Position numbers and translations under genes: made by a program. From a virus (lineage: Duplodnaviria; Caudoviricetes): 64,000 nt of DNA. Of the stretch, positions 1,970 through 36,434 are shown in pieces (the stretch's first letter is position 1; each line of letters starts with the position of its first letter). The notes below the pieces were generated by a model. That model saw only the letters and a program-made list of their open reading frames with translations, searched no databases and had not been told where the DNA came from. The stretch lies in IMG/VR virus record IMGVR_UViG_3300028797_000093; one strand, given 5' to 3'.

Positions 1970-2140
1970 CTTCCTGAGTCTATTCAAATGAATTAACTTG
2001 GGAAGCCATTTTTGCATGAAATGCGTCTAAAACGCATTTACAGTCTATTTACACAGGAAACCCTCAATTTTTGCATATTTTGCTATTTTAGTATTCCTAA
2101 AGTGATTGATTTCTATAGAATCTCTATTTTTAACAATTTT
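1970..2140. repeat. dispersed ~170-bp non-coding repeat, copy 1
   Basis: Colinear similarity to 3486-3654: CTTCCTGAG..TATTCAA.TGAAT, AAATGC...AAAACGCATTT, TTACACAG, TTCCTAAAGTGATTGATTT.TATAGAATCT. Confidence 0.8.
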
Positions 2141-2533
2141 CAAGATTTTTATGATAAAATTTTCTCTAACTATAGTTTACTTTATAGATATATATAATAC
2201 GTATTATATATAAAATATTATATGGTAATTAAATATAATTATATACTAATAGTATACCATGGTATAATATTAGTATAATAATAATAAGATATTATTACTA
2301 TTTATAGACGTTAATATAGTTATATATACTATTATGACTTCTATATATACGTATTTATAGTTATATATATTATATACGTTTTATTACTTCTATCTTTAGT
2401 TCTTCTACTTTTATTACTTCTGTTGGCAATGCCGCCCGAGTCTCAATAATATGTCGCAAAATAATATTTTTTTAATTTTAGGTAATTCTGAGAGTACCTA
2501 AATCAATAGGTACTCTCATTTTTATAGTATTTT

Positions 2534-3485: not shown

Positions 3486-3654
3486 CTTCCTGAGAGTATT
3501 CAATTGAATACACTGAGAAAGGCAAAAATGCTCTGAAATGCATTAAAACGCATTTTCTGTCTACTTACACAGTAAAGTGTTAAAAATGACAAAATTTGAA
3601 AATTTGTCTTCCTAAAGTGATTGATTTTTATAGAATCTATATTTTTAATAATTT
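3486..3654. repeat. dispersed ~170-bp non-coding repeat, copy 2
   Basis: Similar to 1970-2140; core palindrome GTATTCAATTGAATAC. Confidence 0.8.
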
Positions 3655-3747
3655 ATGTTATTTTTAGAGATTTTTATCATTTATTTTAGTGTTGTTTAAA
3701 TAAAAAATAAGAGAGATAGCTCATATAGAACTATCTCTTTATTATAT

Positions 3748-6604: not shown

Positions 6605-6726
6605 GATAGATAATAGAAGAAGGTACCCGACATACCTTCTTCTATTATTTTGTCATCATAGGAGGTGAAATAACCATGGCAGACGTACAAGGAATCCGAC
6701 CGTAAGGTGATCCGGCTCATCACCTT
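6605..6726 (-). ncRNA. candidate small RNA with anti-RBS segment
   Basis: AACA-N6-TA motif at 6726-6737; 5' hairpin AAGGTGAT/ATCACCTT; central GTCTGCCATGGTTATTTCACCTCCT; 16-bp hairpin at 6610-6648; no ORF on this strand. Confidence 0.45.
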
Positions 6727-6795
6727 ACTATTTTGTTACGCAATTCAATTACAATAGGTTACAAAAAGTTACAAAATTATTACAAAAGATACTGG

Positions 6796-7561
6796 TTTAA
6801 ATGATAGGGCGGCGCCAACGTCCCAGGAGGCATTACCAGAGTAGTTGCCGAGGCCAACACAGAAAGCACCACAAGCGAGTCCACGCGTAGAACGACCACC
6901 ACGACGAGAATAATTTGTACCACTACTTTGATAAAAATAATATATAGTTTAAATGATAGGGCGGCGCCACGGTCCCAACCAGCAGCACTAACAGTTGCAT
7001 GTAAATAAATACAGAAAATACCACAATAGAGCCCACGGCTTGAAATACCACCACGAAGAGTATAATTTATATTACTACTTTGATAAAAATAATTATTATT
7101 AATTTAAATGATATGGCGGCACCATGATTCCAATTTACATTAGTAGCAGGATTATGTAAAGCAACAGAAAAAGTACCACAAGCAAACCCAATGGCAGAAG
7201 AACCACCACGCAGGGCATAACGAGTACCACTACTTTGATAAAAATATATTATATAATATGGTTTAAATGATAAGGCAGCGCCAGTGTACCAATATGTCGC
7301 CCCGAAGGAGCCACTGAGAACAATAGAAGCGAAACCACAACGAAAACTATCACCAGAGTCACCGCCACGATAAGAATAATGAGCACCACTACTTCGATAA
7401 AAATAATCACAATTGGTTTAAATGATATGGTAGCGCCATAGTCCCAGCCAGCAGCACCAGAGTAGTAGTTGAGACCAACATATGCGAAACCACAGAGAAA
7501 GCCATAACTAGAGCGACCACCACGATAAGAATAGTGAGCACCACTACTTTGATAAAAATAA
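6796..7561 (-). repeat. Array A: 5 variable-region-like cassettes (6796-6940, 6948-7092, 7103-7246, 7262-7406, 7417-7561)
   Basis: Each unit runs TTTAAATGATA..GC.GC.CCA ... CCACCACGA ... CTACTTTGATAAAAATA on the plus strand. The minus frame encodes YFYQSS..RGG..G..CG...W..GAALSFK variants. Confidence 0.95.
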
Positions 7562-7575
7562 TCACAATAAAAAGA

Positions 7576-7615
7576 AAAAAAGAAAGTAGGAATCGCACAA
7601 CCTACTTTCTTTTTT
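7576..7615. terminator. intrinsic terminator (bidirectional)
   Basis: AAAAAAGAAAGTAGG-N10-CCTACTTTCTTTTTT. Confidence 0.85.
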
Positions 7616-7770
7616 GCCCGTTAGCTGGACCGCTCTATCTGACTAGTCTTATAGTCTTTCAGATAGTAAGACTTGTTTGTAGTTTCTCAAAGTCCTCACA
7701 TCTTTGAGTCTTTCAAACTGCAGAATTCTGATTATATGAATTGTCTTACAAAACTTATCAGAACTCTACT
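7576..7770 (-). ncRNA. candidate structured ncRNA between arrays A and B
   Basis: Promoter-like ATTATATATAAT at 7774-7785; nested inverted repeats 7666-7672/7743-7749, 7675-7679/7714-7718 and 7686-7692/7702-7708; hairpin 7635-7666; terminator; no ORF. Confidence 0.45.
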
Positions 7771-7797
7771 ATTATTATATATAATCAAAAATAATTA

Positions 7798-8574
7798 TTT
7801 AAATGATAGGGCGGCACCAATGTCCCAGTATGTCCCAGAAAATGAATAGTACAGGCGAACACAGAAAATACCACAAGCTAGTCCACTGCGCGAGTTACCA
7901 CCACGATAGGAATATCGTGTACTACTACTTTGATAAAAATAATCACTCATTGGTTTAAATGATATAGCGGCGCTAAGATTCCAGCGTGAATAACTAGCAG
8001 AATGCATACCATTAATACAGAAAATACCACAATAGAGTCCAGTGCCCGAATAACCACCACGAAGATTATAATAAACACCACCATTACTTTGATAAAAATA
8101 ATACCATAGGTTAAATGATATGGCAGCGCCAAGATACCAAGAGGTCGTTCCGGAAAAGGCACTAAGACCAACAAAGAAAACACCATAACCAAGCCCATTG
8201 CCAGAGCCACCACTACGAAGACTATAGTGAGCACCACTACTTTAATAAAAATATATTATTATTAATTTAAATGATAGTGTAGCGCCAATATCCCAGCCGG
8301 TACTAGATAGTGAAGCACTGAGATGAACACAGAAAACACCACAATTAAACCCACGGTATGAAGTACAACCACGAATACTATAGTGAGCACCAGTACTTTG
8401 ATAAAAATAATCACAATAATAATTGTCTTATTTAAATGATAGTGCAGCGCCACGGTACCAGCCGATAACACCAGAGTAGTAGTTGAGATCAACATAGAAA
8501 ACGCCACAATTAAGACCACTGCTACAGCGACCACCACGAAGAGTATAATGAGTACTACTACTTTGATAAAAATA
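7798..8574 (-). repeat. Array B: 5 variable-region-like cassettes (7798-7942, 7954-8101, 8110-8253, 8266-8410, 8431-8574)
   Basis: Same conserved ends and encoded module as array A, e.g. DYFYQSSSTRYSYRGGNSRSGLACGIFCVRLYYSFSGTYWDIGAALSFK. Confidence 0.95.
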
Positions 8575-8584
8575 TATTTTATAT

Positions 8585-8626
8585 AAAAAAGATAAGTGGT
8601 GCAAGGGGATTAGCACCACTTATCTT
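8585..8626 (-). terminator. intrinsic terminator directly upstream of array B
   Basis: 14-bp stem AAGATAAGTGGTGC/GCACCACTTATCTT with an A-run on its left (U-tail on the minus strand). Confidence 0.85.
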
Positions 8627-34045: not shown

Positions 34046-35365
34046 GTGGATTTTAAATTGAAACTAAAAAGGTTCATTCCCATAGTGATGGTATTTGTTA
34101 TTTTCTTTCTCACCATCACCAACTTCCAGATGTTGTTTGGAACCAATGTGTACGCATCTTCAAAAGAAATCGAAAGAAAGGAGAACGAAGAGATCATTGC
34201 TACTGAAGAAGTAGTAAACAATTCCCTTATTACAGCAATCCCTTGTTCCTATGAAGAAACAGAGAGTATCGAAATATCAACCTTGGGATCAAAGGCTAAT
34301 TCCGAAGATTCTGACGATTTGTTCGAGACAGAAGATATTGCTGTAGATGTCTATGAAACAGCTAATATCTATCTTGTTAATGAACTCAAAGAAGCTGAAG
34401 AATACAAACTCTTTTATAGTGGAGATATTGAAGACTTCTCAAACTATATCTCTGTAAAAGAGTATTATGATCTTCTATATCGTGCTTATATGAATATCTG
34501 CAACAACAATGATGTAGAGATCAACGTAGAATCTAAACCATTCTATGATACTGATGATAGGGCAATCGGAAGATTGCACTATATAGGTATCATTGATACA
34601 GAGTATAAATACATATATCCAAATCAGCATGTTACAAAAGAGACAATTGCTGACAGTATATTCAATATGTATCTATACTTTGCATTGGTACCAGCAGAAA
34701 AAATCAATTATACTGAATTTATCAATCCAGCAGACTCTCAGTATATAGCAGATGCTCATAAAGCTTCTATGGAGTTTTGTATGAATCTTCACATCTTCAA
34801 TCTTGATGAGCAATCATACATTAATCCTAAGAAGAATCTCAGATATGATGAAGCTATCTGCTTTATTCTGAGGTCTTACAAGTATATCAATAAATACTGC
34901 TCTGAGGCTGATCCTTTGTTTACAGACAAAGTAAATTGCTACAGACTCCTCAAGAAAGTTACTGGTCTTAACAATGCTGCTATCAGTGGTATTATGGCTA
35001 GTCTTCAGGAAGAGACAGGAGATACCTTTAATCCTGACATTCACCAATGGGGCGGAGGTCCAGGATATGGTATTTGCCAGTGGACAACTGATGGTCGTAA
35101 GAAAGGTCTATATGATTACCCCAGTGTATGTGGATATCCATACGACACCCTTGAGTGTCAGACCAGATATCTTATGTATGAGCTTGAAACTATGTTTCCA
35201 AAACTTTTAGAGGAGCTAAGAAATGTTCCTGATACAGAAGATGGAGCATATAAAGCAGGATATAGATTCTGTAAGATATTTGAAGCCCCAAGAGATCTAG
35301 AAGGATGCAGTAACTCAAGAGCAAATAAAGCAATTGATTACTTCAGAGAGTACAATAACTATTAA
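34046..35365 (+). CDS. secreted cell-wall hydrolase: signal peptide, SLH-like region, phage-tail-lysozyme domain
   Basis: N-terminal signal/TM segment; ...INPKKNLRYDEAICFILR (SLH-like); AAISGIMASLQEETG...GYGICQWT..GRK...AGYRFCKIFEAP. Confidence 0.75.
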   Translation: MDFKLKLKRFIPIVMVFVIFFLTITNFQMLFGTNVYASSKEIERKENEEIIATEEVVNNSLITAIPCSYEETESIEISTLGSKANSEDSDDLFETEDIAVDVYETANIYLVNELKEAEEYKLFYSGDIEDFSNYISVKEYYDLLYRAYMNICNNNDVEINVESKPFYDTDDRAIGRLHYIGIIDTEYKYIYPNQHVTKETIADSIFNMYLYFALVPAEKINYTEFINPADSQYIADAHKASMEFCMNLHIFNLDEQSYINPKKNLRYDEAICFILRSYKYINKYCSEADPLFTDKVNCYRLLKKVTGLNNAAISGIMASLQEETGDTFNPDIHQWGGGPGYGICQWTTDGRKKGLYDYPSVCGYPYDTLECQTRYLMYELETMFPKLLEELRNVPDTEDGAYKAGYRFCKIFEAPRDLEGCSNSRANKAIDYFREYNNY

Positions 35366-35464: not shown

Positions 35465-36392
35465 TTTAAATGATAAGGCAGCGCCAAGATACCAAACAGT
35501 CCCAGAAGACAAAGCTGTAAGGCGAACAGAGAAAATCCCACAATAAAAGCCATTGCCTGAGGCACCACCACGATAAGAATAGTGAGTACCACTATTTTGA
35601 TAAAAATAATCACTTATTGGTTTAAATGATAGAGCAGCACCACAATAGTAAGAGGCAAGAGCAGAGTACGATATATCAATACAGAAAACACCACAACGGA
35701 ATCCAGCGTACGAGTGGCCACCATAACGAGCATAATGAGTACCACTACTTTGATAAAAATAATACCATGGTTTAAATGATAAGGCGGCGCCATAGTACCA
35801 GTAGCCCCCAGAAAACGAACTACTGAGGCTAACAAAGGCGAAACCACAACGAGAGCCATTACTACAGCTACCACCACGAAGAGCATAATGAGTACTACTA
35901 CTTTGATAAAATATATTATATAATATGGTTTAAATGATATGGCTGCGCCAAAGTGCCAATGGGTAACAGCAGCAGAAGGCGATTCAGTAACAAAGAAAGC
36001 ACCACAAATAAAACCACTAGTACAGTAACCACCACGAAGACTATACTTAGTTCCAGATTCTTGATAAAAATAATCACAATAATAGCTGCCTTAGTTTAAA
36101 TGATAGAGAGGCGCCACTATCCCAATAGGCAGAACTAGCAGAAGCCGATGTGTAAACAGAGAAAGCACCACAAGCTAGTCCACGGCCCGAGTCACCACCA
36201 CGAAGAATATAGTGAGTACCACTACTTTGATTAAAATAATACTATAAGTTAAATGATAGGGCGGCGCCACGATACCAGCCATACCCAGAAGCAGCACCGT
36301 TCAGAGAAACACAGAAAGCACCACAATAGAGCCCACGGTCCGAGTGACCACCACGATATGCATATACAACTATTGTATTTTGATAAAAATAA
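35465..36392 (-). repeat. Array C: 6 variable-region-like cassettes (35465-35609, 35621-35762, 35771-35913, 35929-36073, 36095-36239, 36248-36392)
   Basis: Same ends and encoded module as arrays A and B, e.g. DYFYQNSGTHYSYRGGASGNGFYCGIFSVRLTALSSGTVWYLGAALSFKP. Confidence 0.95.
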
Positions 36393-36399
36393 TCACAAT

Positions 36400-36434
36400 A
36401 AAAAGAAAGAGGTAGACCAAAAGATCTACCTCTT
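36400..36434 (-). terminator. gyrB terminator directly upstream of array C
   Basis: AAGAGGTAGA-N8-TCTACCTCTT with an A-run on its left. Confidence 0.8.

What the first reader, a model, noticed from the sequence alone, without database searches (positions are those of the whole stretch)
6796..8574. Cassette variation has the NNY codon signature of adenine-directed DGR mutagenesis
Seen across all 16 units (manual translation). The codon before the final (G/S)AxLS block is always NNT (GTT, CGT, CAT, ACT, TAT, ATT, CTT, TGT, TTT, AGT). The fourth codon after RGG is always NNT. The first codon after RGG is always NNY. The codon after W is always NAY. The fixed Gly in xSxxG varies at position 3 (GGN) in 15 of 16 units. 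Ordinary drift would favour third-position change; here positions 1-2 are scrambled while position 3 stays a pyrimidine. Known: DGR reverse transcriptases mutate template adenines, turning AAY into NNY and avoiding stops. Each unit also has a GC-rich block (best copy GGCGCCGCCC) before a constant 3' tail, reminiscent of the G/C element plus IMH of the Bordetella BPP-1 DGR. No unit is Asn/AAY-rich enough to be the TR. Inference: the cassettes are DGR products or DGR targets. Some non-A differences (C/T at position 3, CGFA versus CGxF subtypes) point to age or to more than one template.
Basis: partly seen in the sequence, partly recalled or inferred. Interest (0 to 1): 0.88.

Follow-up and report, generated by a model that had tools for sequence, protein, structure and literature searches.

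The report
Phage library of stored DGR tips
A giant virus of rumen bacteria keeps silent, ready-made copies of the variable tip of its probable host-binding protein; they were first made by a reverse-transcriptase mutator and, in close relatives, are copied back intact into the working gene, so old solutions can be reused.

Summary
The NNY pattern is real and is a DGR signature. The 16 units are 10 at 6796-8574 plus 6 at 35465-36391, in a rumen jumbo phage. I found the template repeat (TR) and RT on contigs from the same assemblies. Units differ from that TR at 70% of adenines against 24% of other bases. Most other differences match TR alleles of related strains; the rest look like drift.

The units are gene-less copies of the variable tip of 520-530 aa tail-like targets (fold like TaqVP/Mtd). 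They carry the target's flanks but not its hairpins, and they sit behind terminators. In relatives the arrays stay fixed while target tips are either pure TR products or near-exact cassette copies (61/62 adenines kept, donor retained). Cassettes are under purifying selection.

Best reading: a silent library of old DGR products that feeds the target by gene conversion. The enzyme is unknown, and how cassettes enter the arrays is inferred. I found no paper describing this. The scan already reported it from other windows of this genome and a similar library in another jumbo phage.

The parts
7798..8574 (-). Array 1a: five silent VR cassettes (8431-8574, 8266-8409, 8110-8253, 7954-8100, 7798-7941)
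   Evidence: unit 8110 has a stop in its 5' flank, outside the TR-homologous core
6796..7560 (-). Array 1b: five cassettes (7417-7560, 7262-7405, 7103-7246, 6948-7091, 6796-6939)
6796..6939 (-). Terminal cassette that is a pure adenine-mutated product of the cognate TR; absent from the syntenic array of another strain
   Evidence: 0 non-A mismatches in the 92-nt core; in L024 the orthologue of unit 6948 abuts the same 3' flank
35465..36391 (-). Array 2: six cassettes (36248-36391, 36095-36238, 35929-36072, 35771-35911, 35621-35761, 35465-35608)
   Evidence: 99.7% identical to L005
36095..36238 (-). Cassette whose sequence, including a private change 5' of the TR-homologous part, stands in a full-length 530-aa target gene
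   Evidence: L014/L027 target, 3 differences in the core
36248..36391 (-). Cassette whose unusual 5' flank (NTIVVY) stands in target P0245 in front of a TR-compatible tip
   Evidence: protein level
8585..8626 (-). Terminator-like hairpin directly upstream of array 1a
   Evidence: (-21.7 kcal/mol for the 80-nt flank)
7570..7616 (-). Terminator-like hairpin directly upstream of array 1b
   Evidence: (-23.0)
36400..36434 (-). Terminator-like hairpin between the gyrB-like gene and array 2
   Evidence: (-24.2)
7584..7744 (-). Conserved structured non-coding element that splits array 1; link to the system not shown
   Evidence: conserved in L012 and L024; no Rfam match; promoter-like site 7803-7774

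Best explanation
The units are a silent library of old DGR products. Step 1 (shown by sequence): an avd-less DGR elsewhere in this phage (TR, RT, then 2-3 tandem tail-like target genes with IMH and two hairpins) mutates TR adenines into the target tip, which made the NNY pattern. Step 2 (inferred): tips with their target flanks are copied or duplicated into intergenic sites behind terminators and kept for long times, so they record earlier TR alleles. Step 3 (shown in relatives as end states): a cassette is copied faithfully and non-reciprocally into the target whose 5' flank it matches; the DGR can later overwrite it and leave a 5' scar. Step 4 (inferred): the copying is homology-directed DNA gene conversion by a general phage or host recombination activity, using the short conserved ends. 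Step 5 (inferred): the purpose is fast switching among proven host-binding specificities.
For: TR and RT in the same assemblies as the window's genes. A versus non-A mismatch 313/447 against 293/1244. Cassette flanks match targets, not TR. Target tips are bimodal: 0-1 non-A changes from TR, or 7-28, and 6 contig copies of the latter (4 distinct alleles) are within 0-3 nt of a cassette. More matches at protein level: P0255, P0281, P0287. In the strain with RT P0261, 22 cassettes are nearly identical across 10 assemblies while each target shows 3 alleles; one allele equals adjacent cassette 8, which stays in the array and has a diverged orthologue in another strain. 61/62 cassette adenines are kept in target copies. 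Orthologous cassettes: 31 of 65 differences synonymous against 18.1 +/- 3.3 in a spectrum-matched null, 0 of 5000. No stop in 154 cassette cores; about 25 expected among the 140 simulated. Hairpin upstream of 24 of 29 flanks examined. Target model pLDDT 90.9, best hits TaqVP (E 1.9e-7) then Mtd, weak; PHROG tail protein.
Against: No recombinase found (window ORFs; distant relative, 52% complete). All evidence is from assemblies; no single molecule shows a conversion. The window's own TR and targets were reached through other contigs, not the window's record. The 10 assemblies are about 3 distinct haplotypes. Many 'old-looking' target tips have no cassette in my partial sample. Entry into arrays rests on one clear case, and there is no 3' polarity (p 0.26). 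Host binding is untested.
Confidence: 0.78

Rival explanations
1. The cassettes are direct, gene-less DGR targets: the RT retrohomes onto their IMH and mutates them in place.
For: Each has the IMH tail. Unit 6796 is a pure product of the current TR and shares part of its 5' flank with its neighbour's lineage, which fits duplication followed by in-place overwriting. Low hairpin-independent homing is reported for BPP-1 (PMC3240598).
Against: No target hairpins near window cassettes. Only 1 of 169 distinct cassette sequences has 0 non-A changes from a known TR. Arrays are static while targets vary. Orthologue differences fall on adenine columns at 23/71, against 34% of columns. Could explain how some cassettes are refreshed, not the system as a whole.
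Confidence: 0.1
2. Copy-back is done by a dedicated machine: the RT in a faithful mode on cassette RNA, a site-specific or reciprocal-swap recombinase, or an RNA-guided protein.
For: Uniform cassette length, fixed ends and dozens of copies suggest a programmed process. Other AI notes (unchecked) propose an RT-based route or a reciprocal swap in another jumbo phage, and a TIGR-Tas-like locus in this genome.
Against: Adenines are kept 61/62, unlike this RT's roughly 70% change. Cassettes lie behind terminators. The donor stays in place. Tract ends vary and there is no invariant crossover site; cassette length differs between phage groups (about 125 versus 155 nt).
Confidence: 0.2
3. The arrays are neutral debris from repeated duplication of target 3' ends; matches to targets are occasional accidents or one-way dumps from target to array.
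For: Some cassettes are truncated or have broken flanks (units 8110, L039:373, L013:888). Repeats do recombine by accident.
Against: Purifying selection and no stops. Cassette 8 is older than the strain split yet appears letter for letter in only some isolates' targets. Cassette-derived tips are frequent among sampled targets.
Confidence: 0.06
4. The units are alternative template repeats (a multi-TR DGR).
For: Such arrays were noted by the scan in gut bacteria (unchecked).
Against: Units are depleted of AAY codons, carry IMH rather than IMH*, lack the TR's flanking RNA, and their adenines are not mutated in copies.
Confidence: 0.02

Closest known systems
Diversity-generating retroelement, Bordetella phage BPP-1 (mtd-avd-TR-brt); avd-less TR-RT architecture A1 of Wu et al. 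(PMC5758913)
   Same: TR with AAY codons beside an RVT_1 RT; A-specific changes; IMH versus IMH*; hairpins after the target; C-terminal variable region in a TaqVP/Mtd-like fold; 2-3 targets.
   Different: Dozens of gene-less VR copies in arrays across the genome; targets often carry non-A-rich tips taken from them; no avd recognised; targets lie downstream of the RT.
DGRs with multiple or remote targets (Treponema denticola, up to 7 remote; PMC5758913)
   Same: Several VRs served by one TR, some far from the RT.
   Different: Those are whole genes with A-to-N differences; here the remote copies have no gene body, lack hairpins and act as donors.
Silent-cassette antigenic variation by gene conversion (Borrelia vlsE/vls, Neisseria pilE/pilS, Treponema pallidum tprK, Anaplasma msp2; from my own knowledge)
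   Same: Promoter-less variable cassettes with conserved ends, non-reciprocal copying into an expression site, donors retained and under selection.
   Different: This is a phage receptor-binding tip, not a bacterial surface antigen; the library is generated by a DGR; mostly whole-cassette tracts; enzyme unknown.
Phage tail-fibre shufflons and invertases (Mu Gin, P1 Cin; from my own knowledge)
   Same: Stored alternative C-termini for a host-binding protein.

Membership tests
DGR (the phage's TR-RT-target locus) | Reverse transcriptase next to a template repeat | tested here: met
   RT P0004 (RVT_1) at L033:2269-3528, TR at L033:1921-2025; same assemblies as the window's genes. Not inside the window.
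DGR (the phage's TR-RT-target locus) | Target VR differs from TR at adenines only | tested here: met
   L027:1735 has 9 A and 0 non-A changes; likewise L034, L038, L039 targets
DGR (the phage's TR-RT-target locus) | IMH/IMH* difference and hairpin after the target | tested here: met
   hairpin role from PMC3240598
DGR (the phage's TR-RT-target locus) | CLec-type variable protein | tested here: met
   Foldseek TaqVP E 1.9e-7, TM 0.34/0.45; Mtd weak
DGR (the phage's TR-RT-target locus) | Accessory gene avd | tested here: inconclusive
   Small ORF before TR has no PHROG hit; avd-less DGRs are known
DGR target (each cassette) | VR at the end of an expressed gene | tested here: not met
   No gene body; upstream stops and terminators
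DGR target (each cassette) | Hairpin after IMH | tested here: not met
   3' flanks
DGR target (each cassette) | A-only differences from the cognate TR | tested here: not met
   Met by 1 of 16; the rest have 8-21 non-A changes in the core
Silent-cassette gene conversion system | Silent cassettes with conserved ends matching an expression locus | tested here: met
   silence inferred from sequence only
Silent-cassette gene conversion system | Cassette sequence found in the expression locus with the donor retained | tested here: met
   L040, L041: both on one contig
Silent-cassette gene conversion system | Known recombination pathway and measured switching | not testable with these tools
   No enzyme found
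Shufflon / invertase system | Site-specific recombinase and inverted crossover sites | tested here: not met
   Direct repeats, variable tract ends, no recombinase among 45 window ORFs; rest of the genome not searched

The most novel reading that the evidence does not exclude
The arrays are a purpose-built write-and-read memory: DGR tips that succeeded in the target are actively archived into arrays and later recalled by a dedicated phage activity. That would be a heritable store of receptor specificities, a new kind of system rather than two known ones side by side.
Probability: 0.35. Interest if true: 0.92.

Novelty: new variant of a known kind. Interest (0 to 1): 0.8.

Why it matters
DGRs are thought to overwrite their target and forget each solution. 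Here a phage appears to keep dozens of earlier solutions, including ones its present template can no longer make, and to put them back. This joins hypermutation with cassette conversion, known from bacterial pathogens but not found by me for phages. It offers a testable source for the unexplained non-A changes in DGR targets that Wu et al. report in 23% of DGRs. The arrays are also a fossil record of TR evolution and a natural set of selected ligand-binding variants on one scaffold.

Tried and rejected
No whole genome is held for the window, and the 203-kb and 63-kb ENA contigs gave gene lists but no DNA. tblastn of the units against the window found no TR or full target. Viral-contig scans found no cassettes; a distant relative (G001, 52% complete) had no cassette, RT, RecA or tyrosine integrase, which shows nothing for a fragment. 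No match in genome contigs. Pfam and PDB sequence searches with the cassette peptides were empty. No RNA holder listed. CRISPR-like polar addition at the 3' end was tested and not supported (p 0.26). Joints in the contig lay-out are mostly matches between repeats and were not used; depth was not used. Full genes that run straight into arrays (P0001, P0249, P0256, P0244, P0276, P0280) may be assembly paths through a shared tip and were not counted as evidence. Eight literature searches found no description of DGR cassette libraries; the library lacks most subscription papers. The TIGR-Tas-like locus noted elsewhere in this genome could not be fetched.

Full report
Observation. The region holds 10 minus-strand units of about 145 nt with short AT-rich linkers, in two blocks (6796-7560, 7798-8574). 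Six more lie at 35465-36391. One detail needs correcting: entropy by codon position is almost flat (1.02, 0.86, 0.82 bits); the real contrast is between TR-adenine columns and the rest. Contigs of other studies reproduce long stretches of the array without differences.

Context. The window encodes an RNA polymerase beta'-like subunit, a ribonucleotide reductase, gyrase subunits and tail-like proteins. Its genes lie on a 203-kb contig of a bovine gut assembly. It is a jumbo phage. No TR, RT or full target is in the window.

Finding the DGR. A scan with the cassette tail gave 24 loci with 145 units. One carried a TR and an RT. Its relative P0004 occurs in the same ENA assembly and the same run as the window's polymerase gene, and in the JGI sample whose array is 99.7% identical to window array 2. 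I take it as cognate; this is inferred from co-occurrence. The order is TR, RT, then targets of 521, 529 and 530 aa, each ending in IMH and two hairpins. The target model is confident (pLDDT 90.9) and its best structural match is the DGR protein TaqVP, then Mtd weakly; PHROGs calls it a tail protein.

Test of the signature. Against this TR the 16 units differ at 313 of 447 adenine positions and 293 of 1244 others (odds ratio 7.6). Of 225 non-A differences in the core, 155 match an adenine or the same base in one of four TR alleles of related strains (null mean 49); the other 70 are mostly transitions and half are at position 3. So the units record several TR alleles plus age.

What the units are. 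They begin 30-45 nt upstream of where TR homology starts and end with the target's IMH tail, so they derive from target genes and not from raw TR cDNA. They lack the hairpins that BPP-1 needs for efficient homing (PMC3240598). All three window arrays, and 24 of 29 flanks examined, start behind a terminator-like hairpin. Silence is inferred from this; no RNA data were available.

Cassettes are donors. Target tips fall in two groups: 0-1 non-A changes from TR, or 7-28; several of the second group equal a cassette within 0-3 nt, and more do so as proteins. The clearest case is one strain with ten assemblies (about three haplotypes). Its 22 cassettes are almost unchanged, each target has three alleles, and one allele of target 1 is cassette 8 of the adjacent array, still present on the same contig. 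Cassette 8 has a diverged orthologue in another strain, so it is older than the copy in the target. In these relatives the shared 5' flanks are only 11-14 nt, too short for an assembler to bridge without reads (reasoning). Copies keep 61 of 62 adenines, which argues against the error-prone RT route. Each cassette class goes to the target with the matching flank. Pure TR tips often keep non-TR letters just upstream, as expected if the DGR overwrote an earlier cassette. Window cassette 36095 stands almost whole in a 530-aa target, and the odd flank of 36248 in another.

The library is maintained. Between strains, orthologous cassettes differ at 65 sites, 31 synonymous against 18.1 expected under the same mutation spectrum (0 of 5000). 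None of 154 cassette cores has a stop, against about 25 expected in a rough simulation. Cassettes also move between arrays and are replaced.

How cassettes enter. Unit 6796 has no non-A change from the cognate TR and is an extra unit relative to the syntenic array of strain L024. That fits archiving from the target, or duplication followed by rare in-place homing; I cannot separate the two. It is also present in a strain about 2% divergent, so it is recent only in relative terms. There is no general polarity.

Mechanism and rivals. I favour homology-directed gene conversion by a general recombination activity (0.78 for the overall reading). A dedicated machine remains open (0.2) because no enzyme was found and most of the genome could not be searched. 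Direct targeting (0.1), neutral debris (0.06) and multiple templates (0.02) are disfavoured. These are not exclusive: direct homing could refresh the library.

Comparison. The TR-RT-target locus is an ordinary avd-less DGR (architecture A1, PMC5758913). The cassettes fail the tests for DGR targets but meet the sequence-level tests for a silent-cassette conversion system of the vlsE/pilS kind (own knowledge). Eight searches found no paper on the combination. The scan's own notes report the same system from four other windows of this genome, with 54 cassettes (not checked by me), and a similar library in another jumbo phage; I reached my reading before reading them, and they are not independent support.

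Verdict. Observation confirmed, interpretation supported and extended. New variant of known kinds; interest 0.8.

Noticed in passing
window 7584-7744 (-), promoter-like site 7803-7774: Conserved multi-hairpin non-coding element with its own terminator, between the two halves of array 1. Kept in strains L012 and L024 while the cassettes around it turn over. No Rfam match, no hit in viral contigs.
   Followed up: partly
codon after Trp in all 16 units: The second adenine of this AAC codon is kept in 16/16 units although adenines are kept only 30% of the time overall; cassettes of relatives do vary there. Selection on this residue or shared ancestry; unexplained.
   Followed up: partly
L033, L034, L038, L016, L039 TRs: Five TR alleles share flanks but differ in blocks inside the repeat and look mosaic; the template itself seems to recombine between strains.
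   Followed up: partly
L033:657-1364 (-), also L034-L036: An HNH endonuclease sits between the small array and TR in some strains and is absent in others (L038, L039); probably a mobile homing gene.
   Followed up: partly
L020:525-2114; P0249, P0256, P0244, P0276, P0280: Full target genes that run directly into an array. Either single-crossover products or assembly paths through a shared tip.
   Followed up: no
window 1970-2151 and 3486-3666: Two related AT-rich intergenic blocks 1516 nt apart (D8, D10, D14), possibly repeated promoters.
   Followed up: no
window 6702-6728: 10-bp hairpin about 60 nt past the last cassette of array 1; differs from the target hairpins.
   Followed up: no
L016:11905-12007: Three 36-nt repeats directly after TR in one phage group, within the presumed spacer RNA.
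   Followed up: no
window 34046-35365 (+): Phage tail lysozyme domain protein next to array 2; RtcB, radical SAM, glycosyltransferase, RNase H and collagen-like genes elsewhere in the window.
   Followed up: no
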